From: Chungangia koreensis
GTDB taxonomy: Bacteria; Bacillota; Bacilli; Bacillales_A; Planococcaceae
DNA: 32,000 nucleotides
Direction of reading: 5' to 3'
Assembly (NCBI RefSeq): GCF_042651785.1
Contig: NZ_JBHSEC010000003.1
Span: 72,547 to 104,546 of the forward strand
In this document: piece after piece, positions 23,024 through 31,977 of the stretch
Layout of the letters: each line of letters opens with the position of its first letter
How positions within the stretch are numbered: the first letter of the stretch is position 1
Made by a program: the position numbers and the translations under genes
The notes under the pieces: model-generated
The model's database searches: none
What the model was told of the DNA's origin: nothing
Seen by the model: only the letters and a program-made list of their open reading frames with translations

Positions 23024-24128
23024 TTAAGCTAGTTTCGAACGCAAATAGGCGTTGATGAATTGATCGATGTCGCCGTCCATGACGTTGTTGACGTTCCCGG
23101 TTTCGGCGTTCGTGCGGTGGTCTTTCACCATAGAATATGGGTGGAAGACGTATGAGCGGATTTGGCTTCCCCAGCCAATTTCCTGTTGGTCTCCACGGAT
23201 TTCCAACAATTCTTTTTCACGTTCTTCGATCTTCAGTTGATACAATTTCGCTTTCAACATCTTCATCGCTTGTTCACGGTTCTTAATCTGTGAACGTTCA
23301 TTTTGACATTGAACGACGACGCCCGTCGGCATATGCGTGATCCGGACTGCGGAGTCGGTCGTATTGATGTGCTGACCGCCGGCACCAGTTGCCCGGTACG
23401 TATCGACCTTCAAATCTTCACTCTTTACTTCAATCTCGATTTCTTCATTGAACTCAGGCATGACTTCGCAAGATGCGAAGGATGTATGACGACGTCCTGA
23501 AGAATCGAAAGGTGAAATCCGTACAAGACGGTGTACGCCTTTTTCCGCTTTCAAGTAGCCATATGCATTATGCCCCTTGATGGACAATGTCACCGACTTA
23601 ACGCCCGCTTCATCACCCGCAAGATAGTTCATCGTTTCAACCTTGAAACCGCGCTTTTCAGCCCAGCGCGTGTACATGCGAAGCAGCATGGACGTCCAGT
23701 CCTGGGACTCGGTACCGCCAGCACCCGCATGCAGTTCCAAAATTGCATTGTTCTTATCGTACGGTTCGCTCAATAGTAACTGAAGTTCGAATGCTGAAAG
23801 CTGCTCAACAAAGTCCGGCAATTCGTTACTCAGTTCCGTTTGAAGTTCCTCGTCAGGCTCTTCACGAAGAAGCTCCAGCGTCATCTCCAAGTTTTCCTGC
23901 GTATCGCTCAGTTCTTTGTACTCCCCGACTAAATCCTTCAACGAATTCGATTCACTGATGACGGTTTGTGCCGCCTGCTGGTCATCCCAGAAATCAGGCA
24001 TAAGCATTTGCTCATCCAATTCAGCGATTCTGGCCTCTTTGTTTTCTAAGTCAAAGAGACCCCCTAAAGTCCGCTAATTTCTTAGCTGTTTTATCCAACT
24101 CGTTCCGGATATCTCCTAATTCCATCAT
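23024..24128 (-). CDS. prfB: Peptide chain release factor 2, translated through a programmed +1 frameshift
   Basis: Frame 0 is ATG 24128 (7 nt after GGAGGA), [25 protein letters not shown], then TGA at 24053-24051. The +1 frame continues [24 protein letters not shown]... to the stop at 23024; the ORF track shows only this part. The SPF (RISPFDS) and GGQ (GAGGQHIN) motifs are present. Confidence 0.93.
24050..24065 (-). promoter_or_regulatory. RF2 autoregulatory +1 frameshift site
   Basis: The minus strand reads AGG GGG TCT CTT TGA C: an internal SD-like AGGGGG, a 3-nt spacer, the slippery CUU, and UGA followed by C. This is the canonical prfB recoding signal. Confidence 0.9.
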
Positions 24129-27778: not shown

Positions 27779-28117
27779 TTATTTTGTTGAAATTTCATTC
27801 CGCCTGCGGAACTTCAGCTGGCTGATAATCTGTTCTTCTAACTTTTCATCTTCGTTAAAATCGATTCCGTACAGTGCGCCCTCATGGCTTGCTTGCTTCC
27901 AAACCACTTTCCCAGGAGCAGTGATTGTGTCCTGCATCAATACAAACTGCATCACAACTTCCATTCCCTTTGTCAACTGGTTGTCAGAAAAGACCTTTGC
28001 TCCGCCTGGACTAATATCGATCATGCGGCATGAGCCATTCTCATCGCCCATTTTCAGCTCAGCTTCCAACGGACTGCCAAATGTATAACGGAAAATCTCT
28101 TTTCGTTTATAAAACAT
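27779..28117 (-). CDS. Stand-alone PilZ-domain (c-di-GMP receptor-type) protein
   Basis: The start is trimmed to ATG 28117 (MFYKRKEIFRYTF...), 6 nt after AGGGGTG. The two PilZ signature motifs are present: RKEIFR (RRxxxR with an R-to-K change) and DISPGG (DxSxxG). Confidence 0.75.
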   Translation of the reverse strand: MFYKRKEIFRYTFGSPLEAELKMGDENGSCRMIDISPGGAKVFSDNQLTKGMEVVMQFVLMQDTITAPGKVVWKQASHEGALYGIDFNEDEKLEEQIISQLKFRRRNEISTK

Positions 28118-28141
28118 CCAAAACACCCCTGATTGTCTGCC

Positions 28142-29614
28142 TTATTTTTGAATCAAATCTTGCGTCATCCGAACCGTTTCTTCAATCGTCTCCGCAATAT
28201 TCTCGTTGTCAGCCACCGTCTGATGAATCGTCGCGTTCATTTCCTCGATGGAACTACTGTTTTCGGTCAATAGATCTGCGAACTCATTTGTTGCGTTTCT
28301 TATATCAATGGTAGCTACGTTAATCCGCTCTACTTTCGCTTCAAATTCAACAAGCTTTTCCATCAGGTCTTCCATTGATTGTTGAATTGCTGACATTCGT
28401 TCTTCTGCAGTACCGGTAGCGTCAGATTGTACGCGCATACGACTGGAACTTTCCGTTAAGTGAGTACGTGTTTCTTCATTCGCCTTATTGACGTCCGACA
28501 GATTTTCGCTGATTTCATCCAGCGTGCTCTTCGTAAGACCTGCAAGCTTCCGGATCTCTTCCGCGACAACCGCGAACCCCTTCCCATGTTCGCCAGCACG
28601 AGCCGCCTCGATTGAAGCATTTAACGCCAACAAGTTCGTCTGTGCGGTAATTTGCTGTATGGACTCCGTCAATTCATTCGTCTTCGAAATGTTTTCGGTT
28701 AACGAGTGGAATGAATGCTGAAGTTCAGATAGGAAGCGTTCAACTTCCTGCATCCCTTTCCGAAGGCTGATCATAATCTCCATACTCTCATCAGAATCGT
28801 TATGTAACTGCTGGGCTCCCGAAGCCATTTCTTTCGTTTCGTTCAATAGAGCTTGAACTTCCCCTTGCGTCGTTTCCGCGTTCTCTGCAATACGAGAAAT
28901 TTGGAACGACTCTTGTTCTACGCTTGCACTCACACTGTCGACAATGGTCAGCATCTCACGTTGGGCATTAATGTGCTGCTTGGAAGTAATACCAACATGA
29001 TTGAGATTATCAGCAATTTGCTCTACACCACTATTCAAGTTAACAGACTTCTCTCCCTCAAGTTGAGCACGATTTTCCAAATCAATGGAAAACTGTTCAA
29101 CCTGTTGCTGAAGCTTTTTCGATTGGCGGATCTGCATGAATAAACCTAAACACATAAGAACTAACACCAACATAAGGCTACTGCGGGAAGCTGCGATTTC
29201 CGCCTGATTCGGGTACTGCTGAAGAAAAGTTATGAGTGTGACTATACTCAACAAACTACCGAAAGCCATCAAACGGCTCGATGCGAGTATACTGGACAAA
29301 CCCGCAATGTAAAACGCAATCCCTGCCGTTGCTACGGATGGCACACCTACATACGCATTAAATATTGTTGCCCCAGCTGTAACAGTGAGGACAATCCAAG
29401 GGAAGGCCTTTTGAAAAACAGGCACCCATTTCGCCAAACCGTACGCAATCAGCGTCAATACGACAGGAATTGCCATACTAATCACCTTCATCGCATCCTG
29501 GTCAGTCAACCAATAAAAAAGAAAACCGATGAAACTGGAAGCTCCTAAAGTAATAAAAAGGATTAAATTCTTCTTCTCAAAATCTCGTTGCCTAAGCAGT
29601 TGAACAGACTCCAT
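28142..29614 (-). CDS. Methyl-accepting chemotaxis protein with a 6-TM membrane-embedded N-terminal module
   Basis: The start is trimmed to ATG 29614 ([20 protein letters not shown]...), 6 nt after GGGGG. Six closely spaced hydrophobic helices leave no sizeable extracytoplasmic domain. The cytoplasmic signalling domain has the conserved hairpin tip [34 protein letters not shown]. Confidence 0.85.
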
Positions 29615-29745
29615 AATGGACCCCCTGAATATTCTTTCTATTAAGTATAAAGTAGCATAATTTCCAGTAAATTCATACATAATTTTAGTAGATTCGACAT
29701 AGAAAAACATCCGCACGTTAACAGCACGTCAAGTGATAGATAAAT

Positions 29746-29771
29746 GAAAAAGCCCGGTACAATACCGGACT
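29746..29771 (-). terminator. Rho-independent terminator of the AAA-ATPase operon
   Basis: The minus RNA GUCCGGUA-UUG-UACCGGGC (one G-U pair) is followed by UUUUUCAUUU. Confidence 0.65.
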
Positions 29772-29825
29772 CTTTCCCAAGGGTTATTACATCTTCTTTA
29801 AGTGATTCAAATAAAACATTAATTA

Positions 29826-31064
29826 TTAAAAGACTTCTTTGATATATTGTGCCGCATCACTATACAAACCGCCTTGATTGGCATATTTAATATAATTTTT
29901 AACAGTAGCCATCCATTCCAAAGTTGAAGGTTTTGTGCTGCGGATCGCGGCTAAAAGATCTTCCATCGTAATAAGGCGTTCCTGGTTTGTTCTCATGATT
30001 TCCGTCAGAACATTTTCTGTAGCGATTTCAATAACATTCTCAATATCTGCACCAGAGTAGTGCTCTGTTTTCTCCGCCAGCAGATCGTAAACTATGCTGT
30101 TATCAACCGGTTTTCCATGTAGCTTTAATTTAAAAATTACTTTTCTTGCTTCCCGATCCGGTGGTGGAACAAAGACAAGCTTATCGAACCTGCCCGGACG
30201 TTTGAAAGCGGAGTCTACGTCCCATGGCATATTGGTCGCTCCAATTACTAACATTTTATCAGTATTCGTATTAATGCTTTGCAATTCAGTCAACATGGAA
30301 TCCACTAACCCACGCATCAAATCCGAACTCGACTTTGAACGGCTGTACCCCAGGGTATCTATCTCATCAAAGAACAAGACAGAAGGTTTGTTTGCCCTCG
30401 CTGTTTCAAAAATATTATGCAGGTTTTGTTCACTTTCACCAAAATATGGACTTAGAATTTCAGTAATATGTACAGGGTAAAAGTTAGCGCCTACTTCACC
30501 TGCAGTTGCTTTAGCAATAAATGTTTTACCACAGCCCGGAGGTCCATAAAGTAGAATTCCCCCGCCTGTCTTTTTGCTGAACTTTGAAAAGAGACCCGGA
30601 TTAGTAAAAGGCTTAATGATTTTCATTTCAATTGTCTGTTTAAGGGAATCCAAGCCTCCGACATCTGCGAAGGTAGTCCTTTCTGCCAACCGTTCTCCCA
30701 AATTGATTACATTGTCTCTTTTTCCGCCGTCAATTACACGGATCTTAGATGAGGTACTATCTATCGGTTCTTCATTATGGACTTCTGTTTCTAACTTAGA
30801 AATTTCTAAAGTATCCTCTTGCTCAAACTCCAAAGAATCTTCTGAATCCCTGGATTCTGTTTCTTTTGCACCTAACATGTTACGCAAACTTTGGGTAACC
30901 AATCTTTCCATTTCCGGGTCGTTCTTTTCCAAGGCTTTGGAAAATGCGAATAGTGCTTCTGAAAGTTGCCTCTTCAGTAGGTATTCCTCAGCCAATAAGT
31001 ACCAGGCTTCAAAGTTAGAATGATCTTTTTCAATCATAGAATGATATAACGAAATCTTATTCAT
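29826..31064 (-). CDS. Classical-clade AAA ATPase with an N-terminal TPR/MIT-like helical module and an acidic linker
   Basis: The start is trimmed to ATG 31064 (MNKISLYHSMIEKDHSNFEAWYLL...), which follows AAAGGAAAA and overlaps the upstream stop (ATGAATAA). Motor motifs are Walker A GPPGCGKT, pore loop SPYFGESE, Walker B VLFFDEID and SRH with Arg fingers ATNMPWDVDSAFKRPGRFD. Confidence 0.85.
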   Translation of the reverse strand: MNKISLYHSMIEKDHSNFEAWYLLAEEYLLKRQLSEALFAFSKALEKNDPEMERLVTQSLRNMLGAKETESRDSEDSLEFEQEDTLEISKLETEVHNEEPIDSTSSKIRVIDGGKRDNVINLGERLAERTTFADVGGLDSLKQTIEMKIIKPFTNPGLFSKFSKKTGGGILLYGPPGCGKTFIAKATAGEVGANFYPVHITEILSPYFGESEQNLHNIFETARANKPSVLFFDEIDTLGYSRSKSSSDLMRGLVDSMLTELQSINTNTDKMLVIGATNMPWDVDSAFKRPGRFDKLVFVPPPDREARKVIFKLKLHGKPVDNSIVYDLLAEKTEHYSGADIENVIEIATENVLTEIMRTNQERLITMEDLLAAIRSTKPSTLEWMATVKNYIKYANQGGLYSDAAQYIKEVF

Positions 31065-31509
31065 TAAAATTTTCCTTTCGTAATCCATTTGTAAAACATG
31101 GATTATCAGGCTCAAGCCGAAGTGCTTCTTCAAAAAGAGATAATGCTTTGTCGTTTTCCAGGGCCAATAACATTAGGTAGCCGTAAGCAGCATAGGCCGT
31201 CCCACTTTCCGGGTTTACCTTCAAAGCATCCAAGAACGCTCTTTCCGCTGCAAAATGATACATCGTTCCTATGAAGAGAAAACCTGTTTCTTCATCCAAA
31301 TCATAAATAAGTGCTTGTCGGCAAAGGTCCCTTGCAACTGAAAAATGTCTATAAGAACTTTGTACCACTGCAAGTTTATAAAGTGCGATCGAATTATTTG
31401 GATCAATTTTCAATATGTTTTGGATATGCTTTTCAGCTTCTTCGTACCTGTCTATCGCAAATAAATGATTGATGATAGACAGATCGTTTTCGATGGTTGA
31501 TTGCAACAT
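31057..31509 (-). CDS. Small all-TPR repeat protein (about 150 aa)
   Basis: There are at least three TPR-like units (e.g. YEEAEKHIQNILKIDPNN, ALSLFEEALRLEPDN). The start is ambiguous: GTG 31515, ATG 31509 or TTG 31506, all after AGGTG. Confidence 0.75.
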   Translation of the reverse strand: MLQSTIENDLSIINHLFAIDRYEEAEKHIQNILKIDPNNSIALYKLAVVQSSYRHFSVARDLCRQALIYDLDEETGFLFIGTMYHFAAERAFLDALKVNPESGTAYAAYGYLMLLALENDKALSLFEEALRLEPDNPCFTNGLRKENFNE

Positions 31510-31524
31510 GTTCACCTACTAAGT

Positions 31525-31977
31525 TTATTTAACCCCTAAAATGTACAAGAGCCCTTCCCTCAAAAAAATCCCCACTATACTGTAAATAAAGGCTGGTCCA
31601 ATCAAGTCAACCTTTTTTTCGTGAAAATAAATAAACTGCTCAAATCGTTTTTTAAGAATATAAATATAGTAGATATATAGTAAGAGTGCTCCAGCTCTAT
31701 ATCCGATTGCAACATTTCCGATATCTATCAAAGGGTAGTTAACAGTCAAATAGGTCATCAACAAAGGTTCGGAGATAAATAAAATAGATCCCAAAATGAT
31801 TCCTGCATAAATTGCTTTTTTTGAAACTCTAAGCCATATGGCATTTAATGTACCTAAGATGACCAAAGGAAAAGTTCCGCCTAAAATTGCGACTAAGAAA
31901 AATGCATTGATCGGATATGTTTTTGGCATTACCCACACTTTACTCAAAGAGGTTTGAAACAAATCGTTATTTTGCAT
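31525..31977 (-). CDS. Hypothetical 150-aa integral membrane protein (about 4 TM); no family recognised
   Basis: ATG 31977 lies 5 nt after GAAGGAG. The protein has hydrophobic segments throughout. Its stop is 9-15 nt before the TPR gene start. The operon promoter lies beyond the right edge. Confidence 0.6.
   Translation of the reverse strand: MQNNDLFQTSLSKVWVMPKTYPINAFFLVAILGGTFPLVILGTLNAIWLRVSKKAIYAGIILGSILFISEPLLMTYLTVNYPLIDIGNVAIGYRAGALLLYIYYIYILKKRFEQFIYFHEKKVDLIGPAFIYSIVGIFLREGLLYILGVK

What the first reader, a model, noticed from the sequence alone, without database searches (positions are those of the whole stretch)
29826..31977. Candidate uncharacterised system: membrane protein, TPR protein and a Vps4/spastin-like TPR(MIT)-linker-AAA unfoldase
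Three minus-strand genes are tightly packed: a 9-15 nt gap, then an 8-nt ATGAATAA overlap. They have their own terminator (29746-29771), and the operon continues past the right edge. They encode (i) a 150-aa ~4-TM protein with no recognisable family, (ii) a ~150-aa protein made only of TPR units, and (iii) a 412-aa ATPase. The ATPase has one TPR/MIT-like helical hairpin (NFEAWYLLAEEYLLKRQLSEALFAFSKALEKNDPE), a ~70-aa acidic Ser/Glu-rich linker, and a single classical-clade AAA cassette. All motor elements are present (GPPGCGKT, pore loop YFG, LFFDEID, SRH RPGRFD), along with a C-terminal helix. No protease domain is fused or adjacent, unlike FtsH or Lon. The N-domain is TPR-like, as in mycobacterial EccA, but the cassette looks classical (Cdc48/Vps4/FtsH-like) rather than CbbX-like. 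The overall layout is that of the eukaryotic and archaeal Vps4/spastin/katanin remodelling ATPases. The block is visibly AT-richer than hpf/secA, consistent with an accessory module. Plausible roles are membrane-protein extraction or remodelling, or a defence or stress module in which TPR proteins act as adaptors.
Basis: partly seen in the sequence, partly recalled or inferred. Interest (0 to 1): 0.7.

Follow-up and report, generated by a model that had tools for sequence, protein, structure and literature searches.

The report
Membrane-tethered TPR–AAA ATPase module, partly decayed
The three genes are one copy of an uncharacterised module conserved in spore-forming Firmicutes (small membrane protein, membrane-anchored TPR adaptor, TPR-headed AAA+ unfoldase), but here a 412-bp deletion has cut off the adaptor's membrane anchor.

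Summary
All three minus-strand genes, the ATPase motifs, the overlap and the terminator are real. The trio is a conserved module. Relatives of the ATPase occur in 320 of 185,579 species representatives. Of the best 80 loci, nearly all Bacillota, 49 carry small 4-helix membrane protein → ~293-aa TPR protein ending in a 2-TM hairpin → TPR-linker-AAA ATPase, in unrelated flanking contexts.

- The window's 152-aa "TPR-only" protein is a truncated remnant. An out-of-frame 412-bp deletion removed the C-terminal TPRs and the membrane hairpin, and it created the ATGAATAA overlap (ancestral form: ATGA).
- The ATPase head is a genuine TPR unit, not a MIT domain. The cassette is closest to Cdc48 D2 (RPGRFD type), not to the Vps4/spastin clade.
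- The small membrane gene is the first gene of the operon in relatives, so no further upstream partner is expected.

No protease, nuclease or ESCRT-III/PspA partner is linked. There is no phage or plasmid carriage and no enrichment of defence genes nearby.

Best reading (inferred): a protease-free AAA+ remodeller recruited to the membrane by the TPR adaptor. The nearest published analogue is a briefly noted "Vps4-like ATPase + TPR-6TM" pair in other phyla. Function is untested, and interest is moderate.

The parts
31525..31977 (-). Gene 1: small integral membrane protein, 150 aa, an orphan family. It has a disordered N-terminal tail with the conserved motif (D/E)L(F/L/Y)QPSL, then four long helices (aa 23-48, 53-80, 86-118, 126-146) and a GG..P...LG..NA.WL signature in helix 1.
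   Evidence: ORF and RBS. No family hit. Family alignments A1 and A7. AlphaFold pLDDT 87. No Foldseek match with E<1 in PDB or BFVD. 428 clusters in 1.84 billion representatives; the best 150 listed are all standalone, and full-length ones are about 135-224 aa. 100% identical to a Chungangia koreensis hypothetical protein.
31057..31515 (-). Gene 2: truncated TPR adaptor gene, 152 aa from GTG or 150 aa from ATG 31509. It corresponds to the N-terminal half (about 3 TPRs) of a ~293-aa family protein. The C-terminal TPRs and the 2-TM hairpin are missing. The last 12-15 codons are out of frame relative to the ancestral gene.
   Evidence: Alignment with full-length orthologues. blastn and alignment against L006. 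TPR Pfam hits. Every other family member with E below 1e-40 is 288-315 aa.
31090..31103 (-). Junction of the 412-bp out-of-frame deletion (about 31097/31096) that removed the adaptor's C-terminal half. The old reading frame survives downstream as ...FYKWITKGKF*.
   Evidence: L006 positions 406-817 have no counterpart in the window.
29826..31064 (-). Gene 3: TPR-linker-AAA ATPase, 412 aa, intact. 90% identical to its nearest relative, with dN/dS 0.024 over the AAA core.
30870..31064 (-). ATPase N-terminal four-helix TPR domain (aa 1-65). Conserved motif N..AWYLLG.EY......EAL.AFS.AL.
   Evidence: TPR_1/TPR_2 matches at aa 19-48. AlphaFold pLDDT 91, helices 3-13, 18-30, 34-47 and 50-71. The top 50 Foldseek hits are all TPR proteins, with no MIT domain.
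30681..30869 (-). Acidic, Ser/Glu-rich linker (aa 66-128; 19 D/E against 8 K/R). Its length and sequence vary across the family.
30522..30545 (-). Walker A motif GPPGCGKT.
   Evidence: It aligns with the CDC48A D2 Walker A.
30432..30449 (-). Pore loop 1, PYFGES (aromatic-hydrophobic-Gly). G209 and S211 are invariant in the family.
   Evidence: It aligns with MWFGESE of CDC48A D2.
30357..30377 (-). Walker B motif LFFDEID.
30183..30242 (-). Sensor 1 (GATNMPWDVD, family-specific) and second region of homology with arginine fingers (KRPGRFDK).
29862..29936 (-). Family-specific C-terminal segment TKPST(L/I)EW..T(V/I)KNY(I/V)KY(A/S)NQ.G.Y.
29746..29776 (-). Intrinsic-terminator-like hairpin (14 pairs) plus T-run, 50 nt after the ATPase stop codon.

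Best explanation
The locus is one copy of a conserved, uncharacterised three-gene operon found mainly in Bacillota. It most likely encodes a protease-free AAA+ unfoldase/remodeller that works at the cytoplasmic membrane.

In intact copies:
- Gene 2 encodes a cytoplasmic array of about six TPRs held on the membrane by a C-terminal two-helix hairpin (a tail-anchored TPR receptor).
- Gene 3 encodes a soluble hexamer-type classical AAA ATPase. Its N-terminal TPR unit, on a flexible acidic linker, would dock on that receptor.
- Gene 1 encodes a four-helix membrane protein with a conserved, disordered N-terminal peptide. It is either the client whose oligomeric or folded state the ATPase resets by threading it through the YxG pore loops, or a co-anchor that bundles with the adaptor's hairpin.
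- With no protease linked, the outcome would be extraction or disassembly rather than degradation.

In this genome (Chungangia koreensis) a 412-bp frameshifting deletion removed the adaptor's anchor and distal TPRs. The ATPase is therefore probably uncoupled from the membrane and the module crippled, although genes 1 and 3 are still intact.

Shown: gene content, conservation, architecture, the truncation, and the catalytic competence of the motifs. Inferred: the docking mode, the client and the physiological role.
For: - Conserved colinear trio: seen in Bacillus, Clostridium butyricum and Brevibacillus and in a metagenome contig. Relatives in 320 of 185,579 species; 49 of the best 80 loci carry TM>TPR>AAA and 12 more carry TPR>AAA.
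- Tight or overlapping gene junctions: 0-nt gap or ATGA between TPR and AAA, 11-nt overlap between TM and TPR.
- The flanks are unrelated between genomes.
- The adaptor has two predicted C-terminal TM helices in 49 of 60 cases.
- The link between AAA and a TPR/TM protein persists in divergent variants (L089: AAA without head followed by a 577-aa TPR+TM protein). The link between the small TM protein and a TPR-TM protein persists in L090, a high-GC contig.
- All ATPase motor motifs align with CDC48A D2 at 175 bits. The core is under strong purifying selection, dN/dS 0.024.
- The N-domain is a TPR fold.
- The membrane protein's N-tail is conserved but has low pLDDT, as expected for a linear motif bound by a partner.
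- No protease, nuclease or ESCRT-III partner was found in the operon or among 150 flanking genes.
- Truncation in the window.
- A similar association (AAA ATPase next to a TPR+TM protein) was read as a 'membrane-proximal complex' in PMC11237479.
Against: - No experiment bears on any member.
- No complex modelling could be run, so docking of the ATPase head on the adaptor and the identity of the client are guesses.
- The topology of the 4-helix protein could not be settled from charge bias. If its N-tail is outside the cell, it cannot be a cytoplasmic TPR ligand.
- Some variants have a TPR partner without predicted TM helices (L078) or lack the small membrane protein (12 loci). Membrane tethering and the gene-1 client idea are therefore not universal.
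- The patchy distribution and repeated decay (window, L041, L054, L080) fit an accessory or conflict role at least as well as a proteostasis role.
Confidence: 0.5

Rival explanations
1. An anti-phage or abortive-infection (or other conflict) system. The small membrane protein would be a membrane-disrupting effector. The TPR protein would sense a phage or stress cue. The AAA ATPase would either keep the effector disassembled or activate it, comparable to Trip13 resetting HORMA in CBASS.
For: - Patchy distribution: 320 of 185,579 species.
- Different flanks in every genus.
- Repeated decay: the window, L041, L054 and L080.
- Sigma-A-like promoter matches are modestly enriched upstream of gene 1, 8 of 42 against a shuffled mean of 2.4.
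- The C. butyricum copy sits beside polymorphic-toxin/immunity cassettes and an Apyc1-like MBL gene.
- Two of 30 sampled loci are adjacent to Septu PtuA.
- The best PADLOC match of the ATPase is IetA, E 1.7e-33.
Against: - The neighbour survey shows no enrichment of defence genes. Most flanks are housekeeping or metabolic.
- The TPR and membrane proteins have no significant PADLOC match.
- The IetA/IteA score is far below cut-off (103 against 510) and lower than the Cdc48, PAN and FtsH scores.
- The family is absent from phage, plasmid and IMG/VR collections.
- There is no nuclease, protease or NADase effector.
Confidence: 0.2
2. A true bacterial Vps4-family system: an MIT-domain, meiotic-clade ATPase of archaeal origin that remodels a membrane polymer. 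This would be the Firmicute counterpart of the 'MIT+Vps4-AAA → TPR+6TM' pair reported in Verrucomicrobia, Cyanobacteria and other phyla.
For: - The domain layout resembles Vps4: helical head, linker, one AAA cassette, C-terminal helix.
- The NCBIfam CdvC model aligns over the whole cassette at 173 bits.
- PMC11237479 reports a Vps4-like ATPase with a TPR+TM neighbour replacing Snf7.
- The 2 TM helices of the adaptor plus the 4 of gene 1 add up to 6.
Against: - No MIT (PF04212) or Vps4_C (PF09336) match at E<=0.1.
- The N-domain model matches only TPR structures.
- CDC48 (203 bits) and PAN (186 bits) models score higher than CdvC, and all are far below their cut-offs.
- The best solved relatives are Cdc48/p97/VAT D2. 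No single-cassette chain outranks isolated p97 D2 at 175 bits.
- The SRH is RPGRFD, as in Cdc48, PAN and FtsH. From my own knowledge, the meiotic clade has an RRRF/L-type motif.
- No Snf7/PspA neighbour was found.
- Firmicutes are not among the phyla listed in that paper.
Confidence: 0.08
3. A module specific to spore-formers that acts in sporulation, germination or cell-envelope remodelling during development, for example assembly or removal of a membrane complex.
For: Almost all hosts belong to endospore-forming lineages: Bacillaceae, Paenibacillaceae, Brevibacillus, Clostridium, Sporomusa, Heliobacterium and Peptococcaceae, plus a relative in the Ktedonobacteria genus Thermogemmatispora. 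SpoVK sets a precedent for an AAA ATPase with a spore-surface role (PMC11513918, listed).
Against: - Present in only a small minority of spore-formers.
- No match to sigma-E, -F, -G or -K promoter patterns upstream of gene 1 in 42 non-redundant loci.
- No sporulation genes recur in the flanks.
Confidence: 0.1
4. The ATPase is just a generic stand-alone chaperone (a YjoB- or SpoVK-type orthologue) that happens to lie next to two unrelated small genes.
For: JGI annotates homologues as 'SpoVK/Ycf46/Vps4 family AAA+-type ATPase'.
Against: - The linkage with the TPR-TM and 4-helix membrane genes is conserved across classes of Bacillota, with coupled junctions.
- No SpoVK model appears among the 25 best NCBIfam matches.
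- CbbX-type EccA scores only 31 bits.
Confidence: 0.02

Closest known systems
Bacterial 'MIT+Vps4-like AAA ATPase → TPR+6TM protein' gene pair (e.g. Opitutus terrae Oter_1429), noted in Ravi et al., mSystems 2024 (PMC11237479)
   Same: A single-cassette classical AAA ATPase with a small helical head is encoded next to a TPR protein with transmembrane helices. No ESCRT-III and no protease are linked. The authors inferred a membrane-proximal complex. The function is unknown.
   Different: [quoted passage not shown] Here the hosts are Bacillota, the head is TPR, and the order is 4TM → TPR-2TM → ATPase with a separate small membrane protein. The cassette is closest to Cdc48 D2.
Cdc48/p97/VAT (D2 cassette) and other classical-clade AAA unfoldases (PAN/Rpt, FtsH)
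   Same: The closest sequence relatives are the D2 cassettes of Cdc48/p97/VAT (175 bits to CDC48A D2). Walker A/B, the pore loop (aromatic-hydrophobic-Gly), sensor 1, the RPGRFD arginine fingers and the 'SGAD' lid motif all align.
   Different: There is one cassette only. There is no double-psi-barrel N-domain, no coiled coil/OB ring, no M41 protease and no own TM helices. All NCBIfam scores are far below the family cut-offs.
Membrane TPR adaptor plus AAA machine pairs: LapB(YciM)–FtsH in E. coli; tail-anchored Pex26/Pex15–Pex1/Pex6; Fis1/Tom20-type tail-anchored TPR receptors
   Same: A TPR (or helical) receptor anchored in the membrane presents clients to, or recruits, a hexameric AAA ATPase. 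This is the working analogy for the adaptor. There are weak Fis1_TPR_C and TOM20_plant Pfam matches to adaptor homologues.
   Different: This is analogy only. No sequence family is shared beyond generic TPRs. LapB is N-terminally anchored and feeds a protease, whereas no protease is linked here.
Vps4 / spastin / katanin (meiotic-clade AAA)
   Same: The overall layout matches: small helical N-domain, flexible linker, one AAA cassette, C-terminal helix.
   Different: MIT and Vps4_C domains are absent, the SRH is not of the meiotic type, there is no ESCRT-III or tubulin-type polymer partner, and the CdvC model scores 173 against 650.
IetA of the IetAS anti-phage system
   Same: It is the best PADLOC match of the ATPase, covering the AAA cassette only (E 1.7e-33).
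   Different: The NCBIfam IteA model scores 103 bits against a cut-off of 510. There is no IetS serine-protease partner, and the match is weaker than to Cdc48, PAN or FtsH.

Membership tests
Classical AAA (PF00004) ATPases | AAA core with Walker A, Walker B, sensor 1, SRH arginine fingers and the AAA_lid_3 small subdomain | tested here: met
   PF00004 E 2.1e-37 (129 bits against a cut-off of 21) and AAA_lid_3 at 33 bits against 27. The motifs align residue by residue with CDC48A D2.
Classical AAA (PF00004) ATPases | Pore loop 1 with an aromatic-hydrophobic-Gly motif, needed for substrate threading | tested here: met
   PYFGES at aa 206-211 aligns with MWFGESE of CDC48A D2. Gly and Ser are invariant in 18 family members.
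Vps4/CdvC (meiotic clade) | N-terminal MIT domain (PF04212) | tested here: not met
   No Pfam MIT match at E<=0.1. The AlphaFold model of aa 1-72 (pLDDT 91) matches only TPR proteins among the top 50 PDB hits.
Vps4/CdvC (meiotic clade) | Vps4 C-terminal oligomerisation domain (PF09336) and a family-level score | tested here: not met
   No Vps4_C match. NCBIfam CdvC scores 173 bits against a cut-off of 650 and ranks below CDC48 and PAN.
Vps4/CdvC (meiotic clade) | An ESCRT-III/Snf7/PspA-type polymer partner encoded nearby | tested here: not met
   None in the operon, among 150 flanking proteins of 30 loci, or in variant operons.
FtsH | N-terminal TM helices plus a C-terminal M41 zinc protease | tested here: not met
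   No Peptidase_M41 match. The FtsH_fam model scores 170 bits against a cut-off of 600 and aligns with the AAA part only.
Cdc48/p97/VAT | Double-psi-barrel N-domain and two tandem AAA cassettes | tested here: not met
   There is a single cassette in 412 aa. TIGR01243 scores 203 bits against a cut-off of 803, matching D2 only.
EccA (type VII secretion) | CbbX-type AAA cassette behind a multi-TPR N-domain | tested here: not met
   TIGR03922 scores 31 bits against a cut-off of 467.
IetA (IetAS defence) | IteA equivalog score and an adjacent IetS serine protease | tested here: not met
   NF042959 scores 103.5 bits against a cut-off of 510. No protease gene is present in the module.
SpoVK | Orthology to SpoVK (CbbX-like clade) | tested here: not met
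   No SpoVK model among the 25 best NCBIfam matches. Any match would have E>0.019.
B. subtilis YjoB | Orthology to YjoB | not testable with these tools
No YjoB model or sequence was at hand.
Bacterial Vps4-like + TPR-6TM pair (PMC11237479) | AAA ATPase gene adjacent to a gene for a TPR protein with TM helices | tested here: met
   The adaptor has TPRs plus two C-terminal TM helices in 49 of 60 adjacent cases.
Bacterial Vps4-like + TPR-6TM pair (PMC11237479) | Sequence homology of the ATPase and of the TPR-TM partner to the Opitutus prototype (ACB74714.1 and its neighbour) | not tested
Distant TPR hits of 410-512 aa turned out to be generic soluble TPR proteins.
This Bacillota three-gene module (defined here) | 4-helix membrane protein of the LFQPSL/GG..P..NA.WL family | tested here: met
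   The window protein is the first sequence of A1 and A7. It is 81% identical to P0127 and 22-39% identical to orthologues from other genera.
This Bacillota three-gene module (defined here) | Full-length (~293 aa) TPR adaptor with a C-terminal 2-TM hairpin | tested here: not met
   The window copy is cut to 152 aa by a 412-bp deletion. The locus is therefore a degraded member.
This Bacillota three-gene module (defined here) | ATPase with the N-terminal TPR unit and the NMPWDVD / KNY(I/V)KY signatures | tested here: met

The most novel reading that the evidence does not exclude
The module is a previously unrecognised bacterial 'dislocase'. It would be a Cdc48-D2-like AAA+ motor recruited by a tail-anchored TPR receptor to extract or disassemble membrane proteins without a coupled protease. 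That would make it a prokaryotic functional counterpart of Msp1/ATAD1, Pex1/6–Pex26 or NSF–SNAP. Its co-encoded orphan four-helix membrane protein would be the dedicated client or switch, possibly used as a membrane-damaging effector in a new kind of conflict system.
Probability: 0.25. Interest if true: 0.75.

Novelty: new variant of a known kind. Interest (0 to 1): 0.5.

Why it matters
Bacteria are thought to handle membrane-protein quality control mainly through FtsH, which carries its own protease and membrane anchor. This module is a conserved, protease-free classical AAA ATPase whose membrane attachment is supplied by a separate TPR receptor, with a dedicated orphan membrane protein alongside. 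It would be a split, modular alternative that resembles eukaryotic organelle extraction machines. It is small (three genes, about 2.6 kb), occurs in tractable hosts (Clostridium butyricum, Brevibacillus, Neobacillus, Paenibacillus), and comes with natural variants and natural knock-outs such as the truncated adaptor here. Its function is therefore readily testable. For annotating this genome, the practical message is that the 'tetratricopeptide repeat protein' gene is a truncated remnant.

Tried and rejected
- Extending the window: exact-product look-ups of the window ATPase and membrane protein found no contig on record.
- Defence-island test: Pfam and PADLOC scans of 150 flanking proteins from 30 loci gave heterogeneous housekeeping genes and only 2 loci with Septu PtuA. 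No enrichment.
- Mobile-element carriage: tblastn against plasmids and phages, and a scan of IMG/VR, found no family member. Hits were AAA-only at 45% identity or less, plus two weak viral hits.
- Fold of the membrane protein: the model is confident, but there is no Foldseek match with E<1 in PDB or BFVD.
- Fusions or distant relatives of the membrane protein: the best 150 of 428 hits in the exhaustive profile search are all standalone small proteins.
- Link to the published TPR-6TM partner: distant TPR hits of 410-512 aa were generic soluble TPR proteins in unrelated contexts.
- Topology of the membrane protein from the K/R bias: ambiguous.
- Alternative-sigma promoter patterns (W, B, X/M, E, K, G, F) upstream of gene 1: none found. 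Strong sigma-A-like matches are modestly enriched, 8 of 42 against a shuffled mean of 2.4.
- dN/dS of the TPR remnant (0.20) does not show relaxed selection. It mostly reflects divergence before the deletion, so it does not date the event.
- Rfam and tRNA scans of the window: nothing.
- Four literature searches found no description of the Firmicute module. The conflict-systems paper PMC7159879 and the ESCRT paper PMC10936438 do not cover it.

Full report
**1. What is in the window**

Three minus-strand ORFs lie at the right edge:
- 31977-31525, 150 aa.
- 31515-31057, 152 aa from GTG. ATG 31509 behind an AGGTGA Shine-Dalgarno is the likelier start, and NCBI annotates 150 aa.
- 31064-29826, 412 aa from ATG, preceded by AAGGAAA.

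A 14-pair hairpin with a T-run sits at 29776-29746. GC is 0.33, 0.38 and 0.40 for the three genes, against 0.43 for the window and 0.47 for secA. The neighbours are core genes: an Opp transporter, an M20 peptidase, prfB, secA and hpf, then a PilZ protein and a chemoreceptor. The membrane and TPR proteins are 100% identical to proteins of Chungangia koreensis. The contig itself could not be retrieved.

**2. The proteins**

*ATPase.*
- It matches PF00004 (E 2e-37) and AAA_lid_3, with a weak TPR_1/TPR_2 match at aa 19-48.
- NCBIfam models rank CDC48 D2 (203 bits), PAN (186), CdvC (173) and FtsH (170), then IteA (103) and EccA (31). All are far below their cut-offs.
- In the PDB the best matches are the D2 cassettes of Cdc48/p97/VAT, AFG2 and NVL/Rix7. 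Isolated p97 D2 (175 bits) is rank 60, so no single-cassette chain ranks above it.
- Walker A, pore loop PYFGES, Walker B, sensor 1, RPGRFD and the SGAD lid motif align residue by residue with CDC48A D2.
- An 18-member alignment shows a conserved N-terminal unit (N..AWYLLG.EY...EAL.AFS.AL), a variable acidic linker, and a family-specific C-terminal segment TKPST(I/L)EW..T(I/V)KNY(I/V)KY(A/S)NQ.G.Y.
- AlphaFold models aa 1-72 confidently (pLDDT 91) as four helices. The 50 best Foldseek hits in the PDB are all TPR proteins (consensus TPRs, SycD, FKBP51, AIP, cyclophilin 40), with no MIT domain.

*Membrane protein.*
- It has no match in Pfam, NCBIfam, PADLOC or PHROGs.
- AlphaFold (pLDDT 87) gives a disordered N-tail and four long helices.
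- Foldseek finds nothing with E<1 in the PDB or BFVD.
- Its family is small: 428 clusters at E<=1e-3 among 1.84 billion representatives. The 150 best hits listed are all standalone small proteins.
- Conserved features are an N-terminal (D/E)L(F/L/Y)QPSL motif and GG..P...LG..NA.WL in helix 1.
- Its orientation in the membrane could not be settled from charge bias.

**3. The middle gene is a remnant**

- In every relative examined the middle protein is about 287-312 aa. It has about six TPRs, then a conserved P.R(I/L)..KLGGP motif and a two-helix membrane hairpin.
- The window protein aligns only with the N-terminal half.
- Against L006, a contig 87% identical in DNA, the window lacks 412 bp (L006 positions 406-817) and a further 15 bp.
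- The junction lies at about 31097/31096. Because 412 is not a multiple of three, the frame shifts and runs into the ATPase start. This produces the ATGAATAA overlap.
- L006 keeps ...FYKWFVKGKFI* with the usual ATGA stop/start overlap. The old frame is still readable in the window as FYKWITKGKF*.
- The adaptor has therefore lost its distal TPRs and its membrane anchor, while genes 1 and 3 are intact.
- dN/dS against L006 is 0.024 for the AAA core and 0.20 for the TPR remnant. The latter mostly reflects pre-deletion history and does not date the event.

**4. Conservation elsewhere**

- Full-length ATPase homologues (50-90% identity) occur in Neobacillus, Bacillus, Ornithinibacillus, Brevibacillus, Clostridium, Sporomusa and others.
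- Annotated neighbourhoods in Bacillus sp. 1NLA3E, C. butyricum, Brevibacillus agri and a metagenome contig all show small protein → TPR (291-293 aa) → AAA on one strand. Junctions are 0-17 nt gaps or overlaps, and the flanks are completely different.
- A scan of one genome per species found relatives in 320 of 185,579 species. The best 80 loci are essentially all Bacillota, plus a few probably mis-binned MAGs.
- With HMMs of the two partner families, the 80 loci divide as follows:

| Arrangement | Loci |
|---|---|
| TM > TPR > AAA | 49 |
| TPR > AAA without the small-protein family | 12 |
| AAA > TPR | 3 |
| No adjacent family TPR | 8 |
| AAA fragment, from decay or a contig end | 5 |
| Cut by a contig end | 3 |

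- In the 12 loci without the small-protein family, some carry a different 209-214-aa 2-TM protein, some carry two adaptor paralogues, and three (L059, L065, L085) may simply be cut by a contig end.
- Of the 8 loci with no adjacent family TPR, two still hold all three families in rearranged form. Four belong to a divergent type: TPR of about 400 aa → 661-aa unknown protein → AAA.
- Degraded copies are L041 (split adaptor), L054 (ATPase fragment) and L080 (frameshift).
- More distant variants keep the theme. L089 has a head-less AAA followed by a 577-aa TPR+TM protein. L090 is a high-GC contig with a divergent small membrane protein followed by a TPR-TM protein. A Thermogemmatispora TPR-TM protein also belongs here.
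- Upstream of gene 1 lies an intergenic region. Strong sigma-A-like promoter matches occur in 8 of 42 non-redundant loci, against a shuffled mean of 2.4. Patterns for sigma W, B, X/M, E, K, G and F give no match.
- No fourth gene recurs. The 150 nearest flanking proteins of 30 loci are heterogeneous, and the commonest Pfam family occurs only four times.

**5. What it is not**

- No protease, nuclease or ESCRT-III/PspA gene is linked.
- Two of 30 loci sit next to Septu PtuA, and the C. butyricum copy lies beside toxin/immunity cassettes. Overall there is no enrichment of defence genes.
- The family is absent from the plasmid and phage collections, where matches are AAA-only at 45% identity or less. 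It is essentially absent from 2.9 million viral contigs.
- There are no Rfam or tRNA features in the window.

**6. How it most likely works (inference)**

- The adaptor's long N-terminal TPR array has no signal peptide and must be cytoplasmic. Its C-terminal hairpin pins it to the membrane.
- The ATPase is soluble and has every element of a threading motor. It carries one TPR unit on a flexible acidic tether.
- The simplest model is that the adaptor recruits the ATPase to the membrane, either by TPR-TPR stacking or by binding a peptide.
- There the ATPase would unfold, extract or disassemble a membrane client. The co-encoded four-helix protein, with its conserved disordered tail, is the obvious candidate client or co-anchor.
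- With no protease attached, the product would be a reset or extracted protein. The working analogies are Msp1, Pex1/6-Pex26, NSF-SNAP, or LapB-FtsH without the protease.
- In Chungangia the anchor-less adaptor should uncouple the motor from the membrane.
- I put 0.5 on this mechanism. The rivals are a conflict/abortive-infection system (0.2), a developmental role in spore-formers (0.1), a true Vps4-family system (0.08) and an unlinked generic chaperone (0.02).

**7. Comparison with what is known**

- The only published description I found of something similar is one passage in the PSP comparative-genomics paper PMC11237479. [quoted passage not shown]
- The Firmicute module shares that logic. 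It differs in head domain (TPR, not MIT), gene order, the split 4TM + TPR-2TM arrangement and host phylum. Homology could not be tested.
- Membership in Vps4/CdvC, FtsH, Cdc48, EccA, IetA and SpoVK was tested and not met. YjoB could not be tested.

**8. Verdict**

- The Vps4/MIT analogy is only architectural. The specific copy in this window is partly decayed.
- Novelty: a new variant of a known kind (adaptor-recruited classical AAA machine), with an orphan membrane partner.
- Interest is moderate (0.5). It would be higher if a dislocase or conflict function were shown.

Noticed in passing
window 24040-24075 (minus strand), upstream of ORF 23024-24019: prfB carries the classical programmed +1 frameshift site: AGGGGG TCT CTT TGA C, an SD-like element followed by CTT-TGA-C. 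This explains why the RF2 ORF seems to start at an internal TTG.
   Followed up: partly
window 27779-29716 (minus strand): Between hpf and the module lies a chemoreceptor and a small PilZ-domain protein. The chemoreceptor (524 aa) has an MCPsignal domain but no recognised sensor domain, and its N-terminal region is hydrophobic and looks multi-spanning. The PilZ protein is 115 aa. This may be a c-di-GMP-linked chemosensory pair.
   Followed up: partly
L062 3852-8924; also L070, L072, L074: A divergent module type in Paenibacillus and Brevibacillus: TPR protein (~400 aa, 1 TM) → 661-aa protein with no Pfam match → TPR-AAA ATPase. In L062 a DUF6847 protein follows.
   Followed up: partly
L089 5974-8681 (Bacillus sp. 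N5-665; a 5.5-Mb record labelled as a plasmid in PLSDB): A head-less relative of the ATPase (314 aa) that keeps the C-terminal ...TTLDWFSTAKNY... motif. It is followed by a 577-aa TPR protein with a TM hairpin and a further TM plus a C-terminal domain. The record has almost no annotation and is clearly a chromosome.
   Followed up: partly
L002 2417-8517 and 11412-12218 (Clostridium butyricum metagenome scaffold): The module sits next to IS66/IS110 transposases. It also adjoins a run of polymorphic-toxin and immunity-type genes (Colicin-DNase/WHH, Ntox15, GAD-like/Tdi1, SUFU-like, Imm48 in L003) and an Apyc1-like metallo-beta-lactamase gene.
   Followed up: no
L009 1653-3562 (Neobacillus sp. 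LXY-4): A Septu-type PtuA ATPase (PADLOC E 7e-134) and a following gene lie about 2 kb upstream of the module. One other of the 30 sampled loci has the same.
   Followed up: partly
L088 5578-7970 (Streptomyces goshikiensis linear plasmid): An actinobacterial AAA relative (45% identity over the cassette and C-terminal segment, 424 aa) overlaps a 373-aa hypothetical gene. It lies near TOPRIM-domain and DNA/RNA non-specific endonuclease genes. This may be a different AAA-centred system.
   Followed up: no
L041 3144-4025; L054 7582-8441; L080 6920-8454: Other decayed copies of the module: a split adaptor gene (217 + 67 aa), a lone ATPase fragment in Heliobacterium mobile, and a frameshifted ATPase in Paenibacillus dendritiformis. 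Loss appears to be recurrent.
   Followed up: partly
L022 58-3179; L023 5272-8441; L045/L049 5331-8438: Copy-number variation of the partners: two paralogues of the small membrane protein in L022 and L023 (in L023 on the strand opposite the ATPase), and two tandem TPR-2TM adaptor paralogues with no small membrane protein in Clostridium manihotivorum and Clostridium sp. C8-1-8.
   Followed up: partly
whole window (organism identity): The window proteins are identical to Chungangia koreensis proteins. NCBI taxonomy files this genus under Lactobacillales incertae sedis, whereas the closest named module homologues are from Bacillus, Neobacillus and Ornithinibacillus.
   Followed up: no
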